Of a stretch of 64,000 bases of DNA, positions 1-7,295 are shown piece by piece. Every line of letters starts with the position of its first letter. Position 1 is the first letter of the stretch. The DNA is taken from contig CBDBFU010000004.1 in the NCBI GenBank assembly GCA_965205025.1, forward strand, positions 12,898-76,897. The letters run 5' to 3'. The stretch comes from Candidatus Poribacteria bacterium. GTDB taxonomy: Bacteria; Poribacteria; WGA-4E; WGA-3G. The position numbers and the translations under genes were made by a program. The notes under the pieces are model-generated. The model saw only the letters and a list, made by a program, of their open reading frames with translations, searched no databases and had not been told where the DNA came from.

Positions 1-399
1 TTTGAAGATGGCAGGTTAACACCTTCACAGTTTAAAGGAAATCTCATAATTGACAGAAGTGATGAAAGAGTCTCCTTCTTTAGCACCTATGTCCCTGAGG
101 GTCCAGTAAATCTTGATATCGTCTGGTATGAAGATAATGATAAACAAAGTGGAATCACTGATGCTGGTCTATGTACACAAATGGAACTCTGGTCTGGTAT
201 TGTGGAACCGACCAATAATATCGAATATACTGAAAGTATAACACAGGAAGAATCAGAACGAGAGTTAATACTCCGTTTCTACGAATCAGAACAGATTAAC
301 TGGGTTTCACCAGAGAAAGCAATAGAATTGGCTGAGGAACAGGTAAAGTTAATACATGTGATCTCTATAGATGGTCCATTACATGATGAATCCTGCTGA
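1..399 (+). CDS. cassette protein A, copy 1 (C-terminal ~132 codons; 5' end lies beyond the window edge); unknown function
   Basis: Frame open from nt 1 to TGA 397-399. Translation ...FEDGRLTPSQF...YVPEGPVNLD...HVISIDGPLHDESC is collinear with the C-terminal half of the 254-aa ORF 2059-2823 (...FEDGRFTPSQF...YVPEGPVNFD...HVISIDGPFTDEAC). Confidence 0.6.
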   Translation, partial: FEDGRLTPSQFKGNLIIDRSDERVSFFSTYVPEGPVNLDIVWYEDNDKQSGITDAGLCTQMELWSGIVEPTNNIEYTESITQEESERELILRFYESEQINWVSPEKAIELAEEQVKLIHVISIDGPLHDESC

Positions 400-414
400 G
401 GGAGCGGAAAAGGA

Positions 415-1221
415 TTGAGGGCAGGTGTCCTCTATTGGGATCGATTAATCGAGTATTTAAACCAGAACTTTATTAACACATGGGTATCCAACGTCATATT
501 AGAACGTACACCTCGCAAAAAAGCATACATGGCAAAAAGACCAAAGAGTGAATCCAATCAATTCAATAAAAACCACCCATTAGCAAAAGCAATAATGGAA
601 GGTTGGAAGGAACATTCACCTGTGGATTGTTTAGTTATTGCACCTGAAGGCGATGTAATGGGTAAACTACCACTCAACGACTTCTTCGATGAATGTTATG
701 AAAATAACCTTAAAGAAGATGTCTACCTGCAGTTTCTTAAGGATTCATTAGATGCGAAATTTCCAGGTTTCGATGAGGATACTTCAGATCCGTTCTTAAC
801 GGGTTTGAATGTTATCCTAACTGAAGATAATCCTAAACAAGAAGTAATACACATCTACCGAACACCACGTTACGGATATCAAGATTACAATGTCATCACA
901 ATCGATACCACTACTTTTAAAGACGGTGGCAAGTTGACAATAGATATAAATATTGGAAGTGCAAAAGCAGGTGGTTCATTCGATCTGTATGATGGTGATA
1001 CGGAATTACCAACAAAAGGATATCCAGATGGAGCAATTGCGTCTGCATGGGATATTCCTACCGGACAAAAAGGTAGAATTGAATACGAATTTGAAGAAGG
1101 TAAGCTCTTTAAACTCGGTGCTACCGGTACATGGTTCAGTGGTAAAGGAAACATTAATGCTTTTCAGGCAAAAATTTCTATAGAGCCAGCAGAAAAGAAG
1201 AAAAGAACTTATAATGAGTAA
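415..1221 (+). CDS. cassette protein B, copy 1 (268 aa, one C-terminal ~110-aa beta-rich module); unknown function; possibly a readthrough continuation of A
   Basis: ORF begins with TTG, same frame as A, 15 nt after A's TGA. N-terminal region LxYDxxIEYLNxNFxNTWVSNVxLERTP and module YRTPRYGYQDYNVITIDTTTFKDGG...INAFQAKISIE are conserved with ORF 2839-4011. The first in-frame ATG would delete the conserved N-terminus. Confidence 0.6.
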   Translation: MRAGVLYWDRLIEYLNQNFINTWVSNVILERTPRKKAYMAKRPKSESNQFNKNHPLAKAIMEGWKEHSPVDCLVIAPEGDVMGKLPLNDFFDECYENNLKEDVYLQFLKDSLDAKFPGFDEDTSDPFLTGLNVILTEDNPKQEVIHIYRTPRYGYQDYNVITIDTTTFKDGGKLTIDINIGSAKAGGSFDLYDGDTELPTKGYPDGAIASAWDIPTGQKGRIEYEFEEGKLFKLGATGTWFSGKGNINAFQAKISIEPAEKKKRTYNE

Positions 1222-1298
1222 AACATAAAAATGTTATATTATAGGGATTTGAAAGAATTTATTTATGTCCTATTCTCAACTTCGTATATCTATAACTT

Positions 1299-1589
1299 TT
1301 GAAAGGTGTAGCGATGCCAGACAAGACTCAAAAATCCCTGAAATACAATGGTACTCCTAAGCAGGTTTCGCGTAAAGATTTTAATCATTATATCAAACCC
1401 CATCTCAAGAAACGCATCAAAGGTCCTAAACCGAAACTGTCTTTCTATAAGATATTCAACTATATACTTGATAAACTTTCGGGTTGCTTTCAACGATTCT
1501 TAGATGTTACTCGCTATGAATTCTATATGAAAAATAAATCTCAATTATGCACTTTTTTCACCTTTAAATTGTGTCATGTATTATTGTAA
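1299..1589 (+). pseudogene. IS5-family (DUF4096-type N-terminal domain) transposase fragment, truncated; no DDE domain
   Basis: Translation ...RKDFNHYIKPHLKKRIKGPKPKLSFYKIFNYILDKLSGCFQRFL matches the DUF4096 pattern (W-x-x-I-x-P-L-L-P ... R-G-R-P-x-x ... ILYVLRTGCQWR-L) of IS5/IS1182-group transposases. The ORF stops after 96 aa. Confidence 0.45.
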
Positions 1590-1613
1590 ACATTTTGACT
1601 ATGGAGTAAACTC

Positions 1614-1964
1614 ATGAATAAAACAGATGTTGAACTTATTAACAGTATCCTATCAGGTGATAATACTGCGTTCACTACCTTGGTACAAAAATACCAAAAG
1701 AGTGTCCATACCATCGCTTGGCAGAGGGTTAAGGACTATCACATAGCAGAAGAAATTGCTCAAGATGTCTTTCTACAAGTATACGATAAGTTGTCTACAT
1801 TAAAAGACCCAGATAAGTTTGAAAGATGGCTGTATGTAATTACTAAACGACGATGTACTAACTGGCTCCAGAGGGAGAAAACCAATGTAGAATCGTTAGA
1901 AGCTACGGATAAATTTACACTAGTAAAAGCTGCATATTTTCCTTTTTCTGCTCAATTTGCGTAA
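1614..1964 (+). pseudogene. truncated ECF (sigma-70 family) sigma factor; region 2 only, region 4 missing
   Basis: MNKTDVELINSILSGDNTAF...VHTIAWQRV...DVFLQVYDKL...ERWLYVITKRRCTNWLQREK is a typical sigma-70 region 2.1-2.4. The ORF ends after 116 aa and runs into an unrelated remnant in another frame. Confidence 0.5.
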
Positions 1965-2057
1965 GTCTTGTCTAAATTTGGTGCTACAGAGGACTGGTAC
2001 GGCGAGAAGGGACGTATCAATGCCTTTCAAGCACAAATTTCTGTAGAGGAGAACTGA
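1965..2057 (+). pseudogene. remnant of the C-terminal module of a B-type cassette gene
   Basis: Frame 3 translation VLSKFGATEDWYGEKGRINAFQAQISVEEN* aligns with the ends of B (FKLGATGTWFSGKGNINAFQAKISIE) and B' (INAFYLRISVEEN*). The stop overlaps the ATG of A' (TGAAATG). Confidence 0.45.
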
Positions 2058-2058
2058 A

Positions 2059-2823
2059 ATGGAAACCTTAGAAAACAAAATCACACTTAATCTTGACAGT
2101 GACGCAGAAGTCAACGTCAAAGGCTTCATCACCCCGATTGAATACACCATATCCAATTTCCATGTAAAGTGGGATGCATTGGCGAATCTGCGTGTTGCTG
2201 AACCGGAAAAGCGGTATCCTGAATCCGTTTTCCAAGCCTTCATGCCGAGCGAAACTGTTTCGGTTGGCGAGCATTGGCAGATTGAAAAGGGCAGTGTGCT
2301 AACACTGCTCCGACAACTACACCCCAATCCGAATCTGGATATGAGCATCAATGCCGGTGATTCCCGCGGGTTATGGGCATGCCTGCGCGCGTACAACGAT
2401 AAATTCGCCGACATTGTGTTTCGAATTCACGCCGAGTTCAAGTTTGAAGATGGCAGGTTTACACCCTCACAATTTACCGGACATCTCGTGATGGACCGAA
2501 CCGCAGAGAAGGTTGCTTTTTTCGAAATGTACGTCCCTGAGGGGCCAGTAAATTTTGATGTTAGCTGGAATTCTATTGTCGATGCCGGACTTTGCACGCA
2601 GATGGAACTCCGTGTCGGAACACAGAATCCAGTCCGAGATGCCGAATTCACAGCGGATTCCATCACCCAAGAAGAAGCGGAACGCATCCTGATACAGCGT
2701 TTCTATAAATCCGAACGAATTAACTGGGTGCCGCCAGAGCAGGCGTTAGAAATAGCACAAGCACAACAGAAGCCGATTCATGTTATCTCAATAGATGGAC
2801 CGTTCACCGATGAGGCCTGCTGA
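2059..2823 (+). CDS. cassette protein A, copy 2 (254 aa); unknown function
   Basis: ATG start abuts the B-remnant stop. Full-length paralog of partial ORF 1-399. Ends ...ISIDGPFTDEAC-TGA. GC-richer (~50-58%) than copy 1. Confidence 0.7.
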   Translation: METLENKITLNLDSDAEVNVKGFITPIEYTISNFHVKWDALANLRVAEPEKRYPESVFQAFMPSETVSVGEHWQIEKGSVLTLLRQLHPNPNLDMSINAGDSRGLWACLRAYNDKFADIVFRIHAEFKFEDGRFTPSQFTGHLVMDRTAEKVAFFEMYVPEGPVNFDVSWNSIVDAGLCTQMELRVGTQNPVRDAEFTADSITQEEAERILIQRFYKSERINWVPPEQALEIAQAQQKPIHVISIDGPFTDEAC

Positions 2824-2838
2824 GGGAGCGGTAAAGAT

Positions 2839-4011
2839 TTGAGGGCAGTTGCCCTCTCTTATGATAAAACTATTGAATTCTTGAATGAGAACTTCGTTAA
2901 TACCTGGGTGTCGAATGTCGTATTAGAGCGGACACCCGCAATGCGTGATTATGCGGCACAGAGATTTGAAGACGGCACCAGGGCACTGTTTAATAGAAAA
3001 CACCCTTTGGCAGAAGTCGTCATGAAGGGGTGGAAAGAACACTCACCAGTAGACTGTTTGATTATCTCATCAGATTCTGAATTGATAGGTAGACAACTCG
3101 TCAACGAACTCCACAAAGACGGGCGTCGTAGAGGACTCCTATCGAATGAATATTATCTCACATTCCTTAAGGAAGCCTTGGATGGAAAACACCCCGGATT
3201 GGGGAACCTCATTCTCACTAAAGAGTCTCCTTCACAGAAAGTGTTGGACGTTTTTCGGACCCCTACAGTCGGTTATCAAGATTATACTGTTGTCTTGATT
3301 GATACCACCGAATTTGAAGACGGAGGCACACTCACTATTGACATTGAAGTTGGCAGAGATGGTGGTGAAGGTGCGTTCTATCTGTTTGATGCCGATAGCG
3401 AACTTTCTACAGAAGAAGAGACCCCTAAAGACATGCTTGCTCAGAGATGGGTTGAATCCGGTGCCACAAAGCAGCTCACGCATCGTTTCAATCGCGGCCA
3501 ACGTTTTAAGTTAGGAACCACCGGGGATTACGAGAGAGAGGAACCGTGTATTAACGCTTTTAGCGCAACAGCTTCCGTACAGGAAAATTCAGATGAAGGC
3601 AGTTCAGATACACCTTCACCCGGTGTGCATGTTGTACTCAATAGTCCGCAGTTAACATGGGAGATATTAGATGTCTTTCGCGCCCCCGGAAACGGTTATC
3701 AAGATTACACTGTCGTCAATATTGATACCACCGCGTTTGAAGACGGAGGCACACTCACTATCTATGTCAAGGTTGGGAGTGCAGACGCTGCAGGTTCGTT
3801 TGATCTCTTTGATGGCGATGCCGAACTCCCGACAGAAGGACTACCTGATGCGCTTGTCTCGTTTTGGGGACTTGAACCCGATACAGCGACAACAATCAGA
3901 CACCGTTTTGAGCGAGGCCAAGTTTTTAAACTCGGTGCCACTGGTGATCAGTCCAGTAAACTTGGGGACATAAATGCTTTCTACCTAAGGATTTCTGTGG
4001 AGGAAAATTGA
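2839..4011 (+). CDS. cassette protein B, copy 2 (390 aa) with two tandem copies of the ~110-aa module; unknown function; possibly a readthrough continuation of A'
   Basis: TTG start 15 nt after the in-frame TGA of A'. Conserved N-terminus MRAVALSYDKTIEFLNENFVNTWVSNVVLERTP. Modules FRTPTVGYQDYTVVLIDTTEFEDGGTLTIDIEVG...INAFSATASVQEN and FRAPGNGYQDYTVVNIDTTAFEDGGTLTIYVKVG...INAFYLRISVEEN. Confidence 0.7.
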   Translation: MRAVALSYDKTIEFLNENFVNTWVSNVVLERTPAMRDYAAQRFEDGTRALFNRKHPLAEVVMKGWKEHSPVDCLIISSDSELIGRQLVNELHKDGRRRGLLSNEYYLTFLKEALDGKHPGLGNLILTKESPSQKVLDVFRTPTVGYQDYTVVLIDTTEFEDGGTLTIDIEVGRDGGEGAFYLFDADSELSTEEETPKDMLAQRWVESGATKQLTHRFNRGQRFKLGTTGDYEREEPCINAFSATASVQENSDEGSSDTPSPGVHVVLNSPQLTWEILDVFRAPGNGYQDYTVVNIDTTAFEDGGTLTIYVKVGSADAAGSFDLFDGDAELPTEGLPDALVSFWGLEPDTATTIRHRFERGQVFKLGATGDQSSKLGDINAFYLRISVEEN

Positions 4012-4013
4012 TA

Positions 4014-4058
4014 TGAAAACATTATCAAACAGAATTACGCTTAATCTTGAGTGAGGCA
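4014..4058 (+). pseudogene. stub of a third A-type gene (14 codons then stop)
   Basis: MKTLSNRITLNLE* matches the start of A' (METLENKITLNLDSD). It sits 2 nt after the B' stop, as in the B-remnant/A' junction. Confidence 0.4.
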
Positions 4059-4274
4059 AAAATCAACTCTACCAAAGTTTCATTTTGACTTTTTTCTTGA
4101 AATAAGATATTATTCCAATAATTGTGTATTGTTGTGCGGACACCGAGCTGCTTTCCTATTTCCGTACCAATTGAAGAAGCACACCGATAAAGTTTATCAT
4201 CTGAAATAACTGTGAAGAATGGAAAATTGAATGGAAGGTCTTGTACCTACTACTCCCTCAATAAGGATGAAAAA

Positions 4275-5084
4275 ATGAAAAGTATAAATATCTTTTGCAT
4301 CATCTTAATCCTCGTAACATTGATGTTCATTCCACAAATTCAAGCAAAAATAGACCCTAAAGCCGCCGTTGGCATCTGGCTCTTTGACGAAGGTAAAGGA
4401 AAAACGGTCAGCGATCTATCAGGTAACAGCAATGATGGAGAAATTATGGGTAATCCCTCTTGGGAGAATGGCAAATTCGGAACTGCCCTACAGTTCGGTG
4501 AGCCATCTGATTGGGTTCAGGTCAAAGATCATCCGTCCTTACGGGTTTCCACAGCATACTCCGTTATGGCATGGGTACATGCTGAAAGATATTTCTTTCC
4601 CGGTACACAATGGCAAGGCATTATTGCGAAAGCAAATAATCCAAGATCCTTTAGTTTCTATACCGATACTTCCAAACGACCTTTAATCGCAATACATTTT
4701 GGGGGTGCACACATCGTCGCATTCGGTACTGAGTTCCCTCTCGAAGAGTGGACACATCTCGCTTTTGTTGTAGAATCAGGGAAGAATGGTGGGAAAATTA
4801 CTGCCTACACTAATGGAAAACTTGTAAAGGAAACACAGAGCGCTGCACTAAATGGACTTCCCGGTGATGGCGATACCAAAGATGTCGTTATTGGACGAAC
4901 ACATGAAGGTGCACGCTTTTTCGGGGGTATGATTGACGAAGTTGCCCTTTTCAATACAGCACTAACCGAAGATGACATGGCTGATATTGTAGAGGACGGA
5001 CTTTCACGGATACTCGGGATAACCCCTGTCGAACCAACACAGAAATTAACTACCACTTGGGCAACGCTCAAAACTCACGAGTAA
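4275..5084 (+). CDS. secreted LamG/concanavalin-A-like lectin domain protein (Laminin_G_3-type)
   Basis: AAGGA RBS 7 nt before ATG 4275. Signal peptide MKSINIFCIILILVTLMFIPQIQA. ...GKFGTALQFGEPSDWVQVKDHPSLRVSTAYSVMAWVHAE... fits the LamG_3 pattern (candidate-site/defect-site pairing with W-V at the edge strand). The ORF track start at 4212 is probably too far upstream. Confidence 0.7.
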   Translation: MKSINIFCIILILVTLMFIPQIQAKIDPKAAVGIWLFDEGKGKTVSDLSGNSNDGEIMGNPSWENGKFGTALQFGEPSDWVQVKDHPSLRVSTAYSVMAWVHAERYFFPGTQWQGIIAKANNPRSFSFYTDTSKRPLIAIHFGGAHIVAFGTEFPLEEWTHLAFVVESGKNGGKITAYTNGKLVKETQSAALNGLPGDGDTKDVVIGRTHEGARFFGGMIDEVALFNTALTEDDMADIVEDGLSRILGITPVEPTQKLTTTWATLKTHE

Positions 5085-5357: not shown

Positions 5358-7295
5358 ATGGTATTACTTGATAATACTATAAAAGATACCATCATGGAAA
5401 GCATACTTCGTTCTCTATTACTACTACTGTTAGTATCAAACATTGTCATCCCTTATGTATTCGCTGAATACGAACCAGGCACTCAACTCGCACTTCCAGA
5501 AGGTGCATTAGCACGGCTGGGCAAAGGACGGGTAGAGAAAATCGCTTTTTCTCCTGATGGAAATACACTTGCAGTTGCAAGTTCAATCGGTATTTGGCTA
5601 TACGATGTACGTACTTATAAAGAAGTCTTCCTCCTGACGGGACACACAGCGGATGTTGATTGTGTCTCCTTCAGTCGAGATGGTAAAACCCTCGCCAGTG
5701 GAAGTCAAGACGATACTGTTCGTTTATGGGATATCCCAACAAGAAAACATATTGCTACCCTGCAACATACAGGTATGGTTTTAAGTGTATCTTTTAGTCC
5801 TGATGGTGATTTACTGGCAACAGGATGTGGTTATATGATGACGGCTGATAGATCAACACCTTTACCCGATCAAGATACTGTTAGATTGTGGAATGTTCAT
5901 ACAAAGAAACATATTGCAACATTCAATGGACATTCTGACTATGTGGAAAGTGTGGTATTTAGTCCAAATGGTGAAATACTCGTTTCAGGCAGTTGGGATA
6001 AGACTATCCGGTTGTGGGATATTAAATCCGGGAAAAACATCGTTACACTCGAAAGACATACCGATTCTGTCCATTGTGTTAGATATAGTCCAAACGGTCA
6101 TTTCATTGCAAGTGCTGGGAGCCTGGAAGACAAAAATATCCTATTATGGAATGCAAAAACCGCACAACACATCAATACGCTGAAAGGACACACAAGCTTT
6201 ATCAGTAGTATCGCATTTACATCAGATGGGAAACTAATCGCAAGTGGGGGTGGTGATAATACCGTACGCGTATGGGATGCCAAAACTGGAAAGAAAAACA
6301 TCACTCTCACAGGACATACAGATTGGGTAATAAGTGTAGCATTCAGTCCAGATAACAACACGCTGGCAAGCGCAAGTCGAGATGGAACTATTCGACTATG
6401 GGATGCATCCACTATTAAAGGATATACTCAAAATATTTCTTGTGTAGCATTCAGTCCAGATAGTTCCACATTAGCAAGTACAGGTTGGGATAAAAAAATA
6501 CATCTATGGGATGTTAACACAGGAAAACATAAGAAAGTACTCACAGGTCATACAGATTCAGTCTCAAGGGTAGCATTCAATCCTATAAACAACACACTTG
6601 TAAGTAGCGGTAACGATAAGACACTACGACTCTGGGATATTACGACTGGTAAAACCATCAAAATACTCAAAGACAATACATTCCCTATAGCAATTAGTCC
6701 CGATGGCAAAATATTGGCATGTGGCAGTCCAGACAACACAATACATTTGTTGGATGCAAACACAACGAATCATAAGCATACACTCAAAGGACATACGGAC
6801 TTTGTCGATAGTGTGGCTTTCAATCCAGATGGTAACATAATTGCTACAGGTAGTTCGGACAATACTGTGAGGCTATGGAATACCAATACAGGGAAACAGA
6901 AGAGAGTATTAAATGCCAATATACCATCCTTCAATCATCTAATGTTTAGTCCAGATGGTAATACAATAGCAAGTAATAACTACAACAATTCAATACTCTT
7001 ATGGGATGTTTCTACAGGTAGTTTGAAGAAAACACTTAAACACAAGCAAAAAGCAAACGGATCTACAGATGGTGCCTTATCTGTTGGGTTCAGTCCTGAT
7101 GGTAAATTCTTAGTGTCTGGCAGTTATTCTGGCAAGGTTCATCTATGGGATATTAAAACTGGAGATTTTAAGAGAATACTCAATGGACATACAGGGAATG
7201 CCACTACTGTAGCAATTAGTCCAAATGGAAAATTCTTGGCTACTGGTAGTACAGACGGCACAATCCTCCTATTTGGTCAAGTATGGAAGGAATAA
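5358..7295 (+). CDS. WD40-repeat protein (>=12 WD repeats) with N-terminal signal/anchor segment
   Basis: Repeated GH-x-x-x-V-x-S-V-x-FSPDG-x-x-LASGS-x-D-x-T-(I/V)RLWD units. N-terminus LLLLLLVSNIVIPYVFA. Shares the N-terminal motif LPEGALARLGKGR with the paralog at 21293-23125. The start could instead be at ATG 5394. Confidence 0.85.
   Translation: MVLLDNTIKDTIMESILRSLLLLLLVSNIVIPYVFAEYEPGTQLALPEGALARLGKGRVEKIAFSPDGNTLAVASSIGIWLYDVRTYKEVFLLTGHTADVDCVSFSRDGKTLASGSQDDTVRLWDIPTRKHIATLQHTGMVLSVSFSPDGDLLATGCGYMMTADRSTPLPDQDTVRLWNVHTKKHIATFNGHSDYVESVVFSPNGEILVSGSWDKTIRLWDIKSGKNIVTLERHTDSVHCVRYSPNGHFIASAGSLEDKNILLWNAKTAQHINTLKGHTSFISSIAFTSDGKLIASGGGDNTVRVWDAKTGKKNITLTGHTDWVISVAFSPDNNTLASASRDGTIRLWDASTIKGYTQNISCVAFSPDSSTLASTGWDKKIHLWDVNTGKHKKVLTGHTDSVSRVAFNPINNTLVSSGNDKTLRLWDITTGKTIKILKDNTFPIAISPDGKILACGSPDNTIHLLDANTTNHKHTLKGHTDFVDSVAFNPDGNIIATGSSDNTVRLWNTNTGKQKRVLNANIPSFNHLMFSPDGNTIASNNYNNSILLWDVSTGSLKKTLKHKQKANGSTDGALSVGFSPDGKFLVSGSYSGKVHLWDIKTGDFKRILNGHTGNATTVAISPNGKFLATGSTDGTILLFGQVWKE

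What the first reader, a model, noticed from the sequence alone, without database searches (positions are those of the whole stretch)
1..4058. Tandemly amplified two-gene cassette (A-B, scar, A'-B', A'' stub) of unknown function
Two complete copies of a gene pair occur in tandem: A (~254 aa) followed by B (268-390 aa with 1-2 copies of a ~110-aa beta-rich module ending ...INAF-x-A-x-IS-(I/V)-EEN). Remnants of further copies are present: a B C-terminal stub at 1965-2057 whose stop overlaps the ATG of A', and a 14-codon A stub at 4014-4058. The proteins are only ~50% identical, so the amplification is old, yet junction architecture is conserved (B stop overlapping or abutting A start; A stop then 15 nt then B). 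I recognise neither family. Arrays of diverged paralogous pairs like this are typical of polymorphic toxin/immunity cassettes, phage-interaction or surface-variation loci, so this is a candidate for a new accessory system.
Basis: seen in the sequence. Interest (0 to 1): 0.75.

Follow-up and report, generated by a model that had tools for sequence, protein, structure and literature searches.

The report
Undescribed selenoprotein family misread as gene pairs
The "A-B gene pair" is one gene whose in-frame UGA most likely encodes selenocysteine in a thioredoxin-like active site; it belongs to an apparently undescribed protein family that sponge-symbiont Poribacteria carry in tandem arrays and that public annotations split into two ORFs.

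Summary
The repeats, stubs and coordinates are real, but A and B are not two genes. In both copies B lies in A's frame, separated only by TGA (397-399; 2821-2823) and 15 conserved coding bases: ...DGPLxDE(S/A)C-UGA-GSGK-x-LRA.

All 168 family copies recovered from 77 Poribacteria loci and the window carry this in-frame stop. It is always TGA and always preceded by TGC. A 5-9 bp hairpin follows, with its apical loop 22-24 nt after UGA. G occupies loop position 1 or 2 in 140 of 141 distinct sequences. The hairpin is far more stable than synonymous recodings of the same peptide.

Pfam, NCBIfam, PADLOC and Rfam give no significant match. Relatives are repeatedly adjacent to, or fused with, ECF sigma factors. 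Nothing supports a toxin/immunity reading.

Verdict: a new selenoprotein family, lineage-expanded; biochemical function unknown.

The parts
1..1221 (+). Family copy 1, one ORF read through UGA. It is cut at its 5' end by the window edge. It has a thioredoxin-like domain and one C-terminal beta-module, and stops at TAA 1219-1221.
   Evidence: Frame-1 translation is continuous except for TGA 397-399. It is 52% identical to copy 2 and 94.4% identical to L085 289-1495.
397..399 (+). In-frame UGA of copy 1, the proposed selenocysteine codon (context TGC-TGA-GGG AGC GGA AAA)
   Evidence: TGA in 168 of 168 family copies, always preceded by TGC.
417..432 (+). SECIS-type hairpin of copy 1: GAGGGC-AGGU-GUCCUC. 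The stem starts 17 nt after UGA and the loop 23 nt after.
1614..1964 (+). Remnant of an ECF sigma factor gene: region 2 only, 116 aa. Intact versions in relatives are about 440-aa sigma-TM-module fusions lying 24-113 nt downstream of a family copy.
   Evidence: Pfam Sigma70_r2 E=5e-14. tblastn gives 53% identity to L065 residues 2-115, and residues 116-416 are absent from the window. Synteny.
1965..2057 (+). Stub of the last ~30 codons of a C-terminal beta-module (...GEKGRINAFQAQISVEEN*). It is part of the 1963-4067 block and is in frame with the sigma remnant.
1963..4067 (+). Compositionally foreign block holding the stub, copy 2 and the next-gene stub. Its GC is 46.6% against 38% for the whole window. 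It is 82-83% identical as one piece to arrays of ~47% GC Poribacteria, and 2055-4050 is 98.1% identical to L084/L085.
2059..4011 (+). Family copy 2, a complete gene of 650 codons including UGA. It has no signal peptide and stops at TGA 4009-4011.
2821..2823 (+). In-frame UGA of copy 2, the proposed selenocysteine (residue 255; ...FTDEAC-U-GSGKDLRA...)
2841..2856 (+). SECIS-type hairpin of copy 2: GAGGGC-AGUU-GCCCUC
2659..3204 (+). Thioredoxin-like alpha/beta domain of copy 2 (approximate limits). C-U lies at the N-cap of helix alpha1.
3205..3588 (+). C-terminal beta-sandwich module 1 of copy 2
   Evidence: Fold resembles collagen-binding domain/PliG.
3625..4008 (+). C-terminal beta-sandwich module 2 of copy 2
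4014..4058 (+). 14-codon stub (MKTLSNRITLNLE*) of the start of the next array gene
   Evidence: blastn homology to arrays runs to 4050-4067. N-termini of array copies read MKTLxNKITLNLD.

Best explanation
Each 'A-B pair' is one gene for a multidomain selenoprotein.

How the gene is read (inferred from sequence):
- The ribosome reaches UGA directly after a Cys codon.
- A short hairpin in the mRNA, with its stem starting 17 nt downstream and its G-containing apical loop at +23, acts as a bacterial SECIS.
- This recruits SelB carrying Sec-tRNA(Sec), so selenocysteine is inserted and translation continues into 'B'.

The product (architecture from a model of a paralog):
- an N-terminal beta-rich domain;
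- a thioredoxin-fold domain with a vicinal Cys-Sec pair at the N-cap of helix alpha1. On the helix register Sec takes the place of the nucleophilic Cys of Trx WCGPCK (C-U-G-S-G-K), and the resolving Cys is replaced by Gly;
- 0-2 beta-sandwich modules resembling collagen-binding domains or PliG.

Likely chemistry (inferred): a selenol/thiol redox centre, cycling through a Cys-Sec selenenylsulfide, or possibly a soft-metal-binding centre. The substrate is unknown.

In many lineages the gene is adjacent to or fused with an ECF sigma factor, so it probably works in, or is controlled by, an ECF stress-signalling module.

Poribacteria have amplified the gene into tandem arrays that recombine. In the window this left one native low-GC copy, a degraded sigma gene, and an imported higher-GC block holding copy 2 with stubs of its two array neighbours.
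For: 1. Frame and coding of the 'spacer': A, TGA, the 15 nt and B share one frame in both copies. In the four G-S-G-K codons, first positions are invariant, and summed entropy is 1.0 at second positions against 3.45 at third positions. Replacements are conservative: G to A, S to T, K to R.
2. Conservation of the stop: 168 of 168 copies in 77 Poribacteria loci plus the window have the in-frame stop. It is always TGA, while the terminal stops of 158 complete copies are TGA 71, TAA 65, TAG 22. Two distant lineages (L082, L083) have the same TGC-TGA-(G/A)SGK.
3. Truncated database entries: in an exhaustive profile search, 72 of the 149 new hits among the 150 listed end exactly at that Cys.
4. Sec/Cys pair: P0130, P0134, P0142 and P0148 have DESC-C-GSGK, and P0181 has DEAC-C-ATGK.
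5. Hairpin: 95.5% of cells pair, against 44-81% in slid controls. 18 cells changed on both sides, a value reached by 0 of 500 shuffles. RNAalifold finds the same hairpin.
6. Hairpin per sequence: all 141 distinct sequences fold into 5-9 bp with the loop 22-24 nt after UGA, and 140 of 141 have G in loop position 1 or 2. Mean MFE is -8.85 against -3.58 kcal/mol for synonymous recodings, and 134 of 141 beat at least 45 of their 50 recodings. L082 and L083 have GAGAGCG-GGUC-CGCUCUC.
7. Control: Cys homolog L081 encodes the same LRAGPLS with other codons and lacks the hairpin.
8. Synonymous-site constraint: Cys is TGC in 168 of 168 here against 40% elsewhere in the same genes. Arg is always AGR against 28% elsewhere. 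The Ala/Thr/Ser codon always ends in A.
9. UGA is still a stop in this genome: long window ORFs end TAA 25, TAG 11, TGA 8. Copy 2 itself ends with TGA, and no other gene shows an in-frame TGA between long ORFs.
10. Sec machinery: Table S4 of PMC5649159 lists SelA, SelB and SelD for Poribacteria bins 70 and 44 and for SAG WGA-3G, the source of family loci L009 and L016. Poribacteria are among the phyla with Sec-type hydrogenases (PMC13582414).
12. ECF link: sigma-TM-module genes lie 24-113 nt downstream of a copy in 17 loci, counting the window's sigma remnant. A sigma gene lies directly upstream of the Gly paralogs and of the Cys homolog P0130. L082 has sigma, then a zf-HC2 anti-sigma, then the family gene. 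P0134 is sigma + TM + family domain in one protein.
Against: - No experiment shows selenium in the protein.
- selA, selB, selC and selD could not be checked in the window's own genome. The window and the fetched loci hold no tRNA or SelD.
- The full-length paralogs in Poribacteria carry Gly or Trp, not Cys, at the Sec position, and one also lacks the neighbouring Cys. That is unusual for a catalytic Sec.
- Covariation in the hairpin is modest because four of the six pairs hardly vary.
- The GGGAG after the UGA resembles a Shine-Dalgarno sequence.
- The structural model is of a Gly paralog, with lower confidence (pLDDT 64) in the active-site loop.
- The redox function and the role with ECF sigma factors are inferred from fold and gene neighbourhood only.
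- Most array copies lack a signal peptide, whereas the sigma-fused and Cys forms are extracytoplasmic. The compartment is therefore not uniform across the family.
Confidence: 0.85

Rival explanations
1. A and B are two separate genes (two subunits) that are translationally coupled. TGA ends A, GGGAG serves as the ribosome-binding site, and TTG 15 nt later starts B. The full-length homologs would then be gene fusions.
For: A GGGAG motif lies 8-12 nt upstream of the TTG. Public gene callers annotate A-only and B-only proteins.
Against: - The 'start' is CTG in 67 of 141 copies.
- The 15 nt show codon-periodic variation and encode the same G-S-G-K found in full-length homologs.
- The stop is TGA in 168 of 168 copies, whereas the terminal stops of the same genes use all three codons.
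- The split would cut a thioredoxin fold between strand beta1 and helix alpha1.
- Cys homologs align exactly at the stop.
- The hairpin constraint is absent in a Cys homolog with the same peptide.
Confidence: 0.04
2. The UGA is recoded, but not to selenocysteine. It could be read as Cys by a SelB-dependent tRNA(ReC)-type tRNA, or as Trp, Gly or Cys by near-cognate read-through stimulated by the hairpin.
For: tRNA(ReC) reads UGA as Cys in the presence of a SECIS (cited in PMC13582414). Paralogs carry Gly or Trp at this position. The tRNA set of this genome is unknown.
Against: - The hairpin meets the bacterial SECIS rules for distance from UGA and for G in the loop.
- SelA and SelD, which are needed only to make Sec, are reported in Poribacteria genomes, including one that carries this family.
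- A Sec/Cys pair at an active-site position of a thioredoxin fold is the classic selenoprotein signature.
Confidence: 0.07
3. It is a polymorphic toxin/immunity, phage-interaction or surface-variation cassette.
For: Diverged tandem paralogs, stubs of further copies, varying array content, and a TA pair (UPF0175/DUF3368) inside the array of a close relative.
Against: - There is one gene per unit, so no toxin/immunity pairing.
- No hits in Pfam, NCBIfam, PADLOC or PHROGs.
- The core is a thioredoxin fold.
- The scanned neighbours include no secretion or delivery genes.
- The conserved partner is an ECF sigma factor.
Confidence: 0.02
4. The copies are pseudogenes inactivated by a nonsense mutation.
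For: An in-frame stop; the window copy 2 lies in an apparently imported block next to gene remnants.
Against: The same stop sits at the same codon in 168 copies and in distant lineages. Both halves remain intact open frames in every complete copy and are conserved at the protein level on both sides of the stop, and the RNA hairpin is conserved as well.
Confidence: 0.01

Closest known systems
Bacterial thioredoxin-fold selenoproteins decoded through SelB and SECIS (Trx-like, Prx-like, DsbA-like and UGSC-containing families of the marine selenoproteome; PMC2398784, PMC13188914)
   Same: In-frame UGA with a downstream hairpin. Sec sits at the CxxC position of a Trx fold. Cys-containing homologs exist. 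Gene callers split or truncate the gene.
   Different: - The motif is C-U-G-S-G-K (vicinal Cys-Sec with no CxxU or UxxC partner).
- No match to any NCBIfam selenoprotein model, including NF041046 UGSC, or to Pfam.
- The architecture is large and multidomain.
- Arrays hold up to 6 tandem copies per locus, and two fetched loci of one genome together hold up to 5 copies (a lower bound).
- The paralogs that lost Sec carry Gly or Trp rather than Cys.
Periplasmic Trx-like domains: DsbD-gamma and DsbD-like (1vrs, 3f9u), DsbH (2ju5), Thioredox_DsbH/DUF255 (3ira, 7tkv)
   Different: No sequence-level membership. There is no CxxC: the second Cys position is Gly. Most Poribacteria array copies lack a signal peptide.
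C-terminal Gly-Cys-Sec-Gly redox centre of mammalian thioredoxin reductase (own knowledge)
   Same: Adjacent Cys-Sec followed by Gly, able to form a selenenylsulfide ring.
   Different: In TrxR the motif sits on a flexible C-terminal tail of a flavoenzyme. Here it is at the N-cap of helix alpha1 of a Trx fold. The two are unrelated by descent.
ECF sigma factors with fused or adjacent extracytoplasmic sensor / anti-sigma domains
   Same: A sigma gene lies directly next to the family gene. There are sigma-TM-module fusions, and one sigma-TM-family-domain fusion, P0134.
   Different: No known ECF group is reported with a selenoprotein partner (literature search). In the window only a 116-aa sigma remnant is left.
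Collagen-binding domain (ColG/ColH), PPC domains and PliG beta-sandwiches
   Different: No sequence similarity. The binding partner is unknown. The module is also found at the extracytoplasmic end of the neighbouring sigma fusion proteins.

Membership tests
Bacterial selenoprotein gene (SelB/SECIS-dependent UGA recoding) | In-frame UGA conserved among homologs, with protein-level conservation on both sides | tested here: met
   168 of 168 copies, TGA only. Distant lineages L082 and L083 have it too. The 15-nt 'spacer' varies with codon periodicity.
Bacterial selenoprotein gene (SelB/SECIS-dependent UGA recoding) | Homologs with Cys aligned to the UGA | tested here: met
   P0130, P0134, P0142, P0148 and P0181 have C-C at this point. 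Poribacteria full-length paralogs have Gly or Trp instead.
Bacterial selenoprotein gene (SelB/SECIS-dependent UGA recoding) | Stem-loop shortly downstream of UGA with G in the first or second loop position (the G rule as quoted in PMC13582414; the UGA-to-loop distance range is from my own knowledge of bSECISearch) | tested here: met
   141 of 141 distinct sequences form the hairpin, with the loop 22-24 nt after UGA. G rule met in 140 of 141. The hairpin beats synonymous recodings, and pair counts and RNAalifold support it.
Bacterial selenoprotein gene (SelB/SECIS-dependent UGA recoding) | selA, selB, selC and selD present in the same genome | not testable with these tools
   Only 64 kb of this genome is available, and it holds no tRNA. 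The literature reports SelA, SelB and SelD COGs in Poribacteria bins 70 and 44 and in SAG WGA-3G, which carries family loci L009 and L016.
Bacterial selenoprotein gene (SelB/SECIS-dependent UGA recoding) | Selenium shown in the protein (75Se labelling or mass spectrometry) | not testable with these tools
   The organisms are uncultured and no experiment was possible.
Thioredoxin-fold thiol:disulfide oxidoreductases (DsbD-gamma / DsbH / Thioredoxin_7 type) | Thioredoxin fold | tested here: met
Thioredoxin-fold thiol:disulfide oxidoreductases (DsbD-gamma / DsbH / Thioredoxin_7 type) | CxxC (or CxxU/UxxC) motif at the N-terminus of helix alpha1 | tested here: not met
   The motif is C-U-G-S-G-K, and the fourth position after U is Gly. 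The redox pair, if there is one, is the vicinal C-U.
Thioredoxin-fold thiol:disulfide oxidoreductases (DsbD-gamma / DsbH / Thioredoxin_7 type) | Match to the family's sequence profile | tested here: not met
   No significant Pfam, NCBIfam or PDB-sequence match: Pfam and NCBIfam were scanned to E = 1 and the PDB profile search to E = 10; the best hits are DUF3485 at E 0.18 and PU.1 at E 0.17.
UGSC-containing selenoprotein (NF041046) | U-G-S-C motif and a match to the NCBIfam model | tested here: not met
   The motif here is C-U-G-S-G. NCBIfam gives no hit.
Polymorphic toxin / immunity cassette | Separate toxin and immunity genes, a recognisable toxin domain, and a delivery system nearby | tested here: not met
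   There is one gene per unit. No Pfam, PADLOC or PHROGs hits. The scanned neighbours include no secretion or delivery genes.
ECF sigma / anti-sigma signalling module | Conserved adjacency or fusion with an ECF sigma factor | tested here: met
   17 loci, counting the window's sigma remnant, have a sigma gene 24-113 nt downstream of a copy. Further cases: L078, L079, L081, L082 and the P0134 fusion. The window keeps only a remnant at 1614-1964. A functional link was not tested.

The most novel reading that the evidence does not exclude
The family is an ECF-sigma-coupled sensor or effector that uses a vicinal Cys-Sec pair to detect or detoxify an oxidant, electrophile or soft metal(loid) in the sponge host. 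If so, Poribacteria hold one of the largest single-family selenoprotein expansions in bacteria, with at least 3-5 UGA-containing copies in each genome sampled at two loci (a lower bound) and up to 6 in one tandem array. Sec has then been swapped repeatedly for Gly or Trp in regulatory 'dead' paralogs.
Probability: 0.25. Interest if true: 0.8.

Novelty: new member of a known kind. Interest (0 to 1): 0.62.

Why it matters
1. Annotation. In every public Poribacteria genome sampled here this gene is annotated as two hypothetical ORFs. Recognising the UGA as a sense codon corrects hundreds of gene models. A profile of the full-length protein finds 754 representatives of 50%-identity clusters at E ≤ 1e-3. 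These include A-halves, B-halves and some proteins that match only the C-terminal module.

2. Selenoprotein biology. The family has no model in Pfam or NCBIfam. Its active-site motif is unusual, a vicinal C-U at the CxxC site of a thioredoxin fold. It has also been amplified in a way that is unusual for bacterial selenoproteins.

3. Sponge symbiosis. Earlier work noted that SelA and SelB are enriched in sponge symbionts without naming the client proteins. This family is a candidate major client in Poribacteria.

4. Function. The recurrent link to ECF sigma factors gives a testable handle on what the protein does.

Tried and rejected
- Two-gene cassette: rejected on frame, the codon-periodic 'spacer', CTG 'starts', and the fact that the split would cut a thioredoxin fold.
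- Global UGA reassignment (code 4 or 25): rejected. TGA ends 8 of 44 long ORFs in the window and ends copy 2 itself.
- Pseudogene: rejected on conservation.
- Toxin/immunity or defence system: no hits.
- Unconstrained MFE of the 45 nt after UGA: only weakly better than recodings (-12.5 against -9.6) because alternative folds compete. Restricting the fold to the hairpin region gave the clear result.
- The 'unpaired' cells: explained by a +2 register of the same hairpin.
- Search for tRNA(Sec) and SelD in the window and fetched loci: nothing found. This is uninformative.
- Rfam on 1-4400: no match.
- PDB sequence-profile search: only chance hits.
- AF2 model of the A part alone: pLDDT 54, too poor to search with.
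- The fused window protein could not be submitted for structure prediction. The Gly paralog P0002 was modelled instead.
- The afdb50 library was unavailable.
- ORF 1299-1589 looked like an IS5-type transposase N-terminus from memory, but Pfam gives no hit.
- Literature searches for Poribacteria or sponge selenoproteins, or for selenoproteins tied to ECF sigma factors, found no description of this family.

Full report
**1. What is in the sequence**

The region holds two paralogous units, at 1-1221 and 2059-4011, that are 52% identical. Copy 1 runs off the left edge of the window.

- a C-terminal stub at 1965-2057, whose TGA lies one base before the ATG of copy 2;
- a 14-codon N-terminal stub at 4014-4058;
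- one C-terminal module in copy 1 and two in copy 2.

'B' lies in the same frame as 'A'. The two are separated only by TGA (397-399; 2821-2823) and 15 nt that are nearly identical in both copies. These 15 nt encode G-S-G-K-(G/D), giving ...IHVISIDGP(L/F)xDE(S/A)C-TGA-GSGK-x-LRA....

**2. The stop is conserved and read through**

A protein search found A-only hits, B-only hits and about 15 full-length hits of 404-606 aa. The full-length proteins run through the junction as DEAC-G-(G/A)SGK.

A scan of one genome per species returned 235 related stretches. The 77 loci kept are all Candidatus Poribacteria apart from two records titled only 'uncultured bacterium'. In these loci plus the window I found 168 family copies:
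- every copy has an in-frame stop at this codon;
- the stop is always TGA;
- it is always preceded by TGC.

The real ends of 158 complete copies use TGA 71, TAA 65 and TAG 22.

Within the four G-S-G-K codons, first positions never vary, and third positions carry most of the variation. Replacements are conservative. The supposed start of B is TTG in 68 copies, CTG in 67 and ATG in 3.

UGA is still a normal stop in this genome. Long window ORFs end TAA 25, TAG 11 and TGA 8. Copy 2 itself ends with TGA. No other window gene has an in-frame TGA between long ORFs.

**3. A SECIS-type hairpin**

Both window copies have GAGGGC-AG(G/U)U-G(U/C)CCUC starting 17 nt after the UGA. The test set was 141 distinct 51-nt segments.
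- 95.5% of cells pair, against 44-81% when the 3' arm is slid.
- 18 cells changed on both sides, for example GAGAGC/GCUCUC and GAGAAC/GUUCUC. None of 500 shuffles reaches this.
- RNAalifold predicts the same hairpin independently.
- Folded one by one, all 141 form a 5-9 bp hairpin with the loop 22-24 nt after UGA.
- G occupies loop position 1 or 2 in 140 of 141.
- Mean MFE is -8.85 kcal/mol, against -3.58 for synonymous recodings drawn from the family's own codon usage.
- 134 of 141 beat at least 45 of their 50 recodings.

Variants that looked unpaired use a +2 register, for example GAGGGCA-CGUG-UGCUCUC.

Synonymous sites are frozen. Cys is TGC in 168 of 168 copies, against 40% elsewhere in the same genes. 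Arg is always AGR, against 28% elsewhere. The third base of the Ala/Thr/Ser codon is always A.

G in the first or second loop position is the bacterial SECIS consensus as quoted in PMC13582414.

**4. Sec/Cys pair and controls**

A profile of the full-length paralogs was searched against 1.84 billion cluster representatives. It gave 754 hits at E ≤ 1e-3. Of the 149 new hits among the 150 listed, 72 end exactly at the Cys before the UGA. B-halves start at profile position 315.

A few distant proteins cross the junction and carry Cys there:
- P0130, P0134, P0142 and P0148: DESC-C-GSGK;
- P0181: DEAC-C-ATGK.

Two distant Sec-type members (L082, L083) have TGC-TGA-(G/A)SGK-x-LRAGPLS. Their hairpin is GAGAGCG-GGUC-CGCUCUC, a 7-bp stem.

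Cys homolog L081 encodes the same LRAGPLS with different codons and lacks the hairpin.

The Poribacteria Gly paralogs keep a partly decayed hairpin, and in L078 the Cys codon is TGT. This suggests they descend from Sec forms.

**5. Sec machinery**

The machinery could not be tested in the window genome.

Table S4 of Slaby et al. 2017 (PMC5649159) lists SelA, SelB and SelD COGs for Poribacteria bins 70 and 44. It also lists them for SAG WGA-3G (ASZN01), the source of family loci L009 and L016.

PMC13582414 lists Poribacteria among the phyla with Sec-type group 4 hydrogenases.

**6. The protein**

Pfam, NCBIfam, PADLOC and PHROGs recognise nothing. NCBIfam includes the named selenoprotein models reviewed in PMC13188914. 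A PDB sequence-profile search gave only chance hits.

An AF2 model of the Gly paralog P0002 has pLDDT 74 and pTM 0.66. It shows three parts:
- an N-terminal beta-rich domain, residues 29-242;
- a thioredoxin-like alpha/beta domain, residues 258-412;
- a C-terminal beta-sandwich, residues 432-556.

Strand beta1 is IHVVST (294-299). C308 and position 309, the Sec position, precede the helix that starts at S311. On that register C-U-G-S-G-K lines up with W-C-G-P-C-K of thioredoxin. Sec would then take the place of the nucleophilic Cys and Gly that of the resolving Cys. This alignment is my inference.

Most array copies lack a signal peptide (MKTLxNKITLNLD). One subfamily and the Gly paralogs have one.

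**7. Link to ECF sigma factors**

- The window ORF 1614-1964 is only region 2 of an ECF sigma factor.
- Intact relatives (L065, L056) are ~444-aa proteins: sigma, a TM helix, and a C-terminal module homologous to the family's own module.
- Such a sigma gene lies 24-113 nt downstream of a family copy in 17 loci, counting the window's own sigma remnant.
- A sigma gene directly precedes the Gly paralogs and the Cys homolog P0130.
- L082 has sigma, then a zf-HC2 anti-sigma, then the family gene.
- P0134 joins sigma, a TM helix and the family's N-terminal and Trx domains in one polypeptide.

This is consistent linkage across lineages. The function behind it is not tested.

**8. The array in the window**

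Tandem arrays of up to 6 copies, typically with 1-nt gaps, are the rule in Poribacteria.

The block 1963-4067 has 46.6% GC, against 38% for the window as a whole (GC3 0.45 against 0.30-0.37 for the three other window genes measured). It matches arrays of ~47% GC Poribacteria as one piece at 82-83% identity.

Two independent sponge-metagenome contigs (L084, L085) carry copy 2 at 98.1% identity, and L085 also carries copy 1 at 94.4%. L085 has another family copy and a UPF0175/DUF3368 pair between them. The contigs continue into a different downstream context.

So the linkage of copy 1 and copy 2 also appears in another assembly, and array content differs between close relatives. The window version looks like a recombination or transfer product that also destroyed the sigma gene. 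An assembly chimera at the two block borders cannot be fully excluded.

**9. Verdict**

The best explanation is a single selenoprotein gene, which I put at about 0.85. The family appears undescribed, is expanded in one lineage and is split by annotators in every genome sampled.

Its chemistry (a selenol/thiol redox or metal-binding centre) and its role with ECF sigma factors are inferred. The toxin/immunity idea has no support.

Noticed in passing
L065 6815-8149; L056 8351-9685; L078 4710-6032; L079 1636-2952: ECF sigma factors fused through a TM helix to an extracytoplasmic copy of the same ~110-aa beta-module that ends the family proteins. They lie directly next to family genes.
   Followed up: partly
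P0134 (668 aa, Logan contig of 2.6 kb): A single polypeptide made of an ECF sigma (regions 2 and 4), a TM helix, and the family's N-domain and Trx domain, with Cys-Cys in place of Cys-Sec. This is a 'Rosetta stone' fusion tying the family to sigma signalling.
   Followed up: partly
window 1963-4067 against its flanks; L084, L085: The block holding copy 2 has 46.6% GC in a 38% GC window. It is 98% identical to contigs from other samples that have a different downstream context. This points to transfer or recombination between co-resident Poribacteria, though an assembly chimera is not fully excluded.
   Followed up: partly
L085 3390-4177; L084 1801-2588: A UPF0175/DUF3368 (antitoxin / PIN-like) pair sits inside the family array of the closest relative, where the window has the sigma remnant and the stub.
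   Followed up: no
L078 around 7060; L079 around 3925; proteins P0002-P0018, P0037, P0045: Full-length paralogs carry Gly (GGC/GGT) or Trp at the Sec position, and some also lack the neighbouring Cys. The two Gly paralogs read at DNA level (L078, L079) keep a partly decayed hairpin, so they look like Sec-loss derivatives. These two lie between an ECF sigma fusion and ABC-2 permease genes.
   Followed up: partly
L065 1083-2102 and 3968-5020; L049 1960-2982 and 4857-5906; L060 4850-5896: In the signal-peptide-bearing subfamily, each family gene is preceded by a ~340-350-aa secreted protein of unknown function. That may be a genuine two-gene unit.
   Followed up: no
window 1614-2057: The sigma remnant and the module stub are in the same reading frame, separated only by TAA 1962-1964. 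The stub also matches the last 25 residues of the L065 sigma fusion (44% identity). It could therefore be read as an internally deleted sigma-TM-module gene, although blastn ties the stub to the imported block.
   Followed up: partly
window 4275-5084 and 5358-7295: A secreted LamG (Laminin_G_3) protein and a 645-aa WD40 beta-propeller protein lie just downstream. LamG genes also end the sigma-containing loci L065 and L049.
   Followed up: no
window 1299-1589: A 96-aa ORF between copy 1 and the sigma remnant, in the lowest-GC stretch (33.5%). From memory it resembles an IS5-type transposase N-terminus, but Pfam gives no hit.
   Followed up: partly
alignment A2, columns 1-16 (TGC-TGA-GGGAGCGGC-A): RNAalifold also draws a small 5-bp stem that includes the UGA itself (UGCUG/CGGCA). 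It shows no covariation and may simply reflect coding constraint.
   Followed up: no
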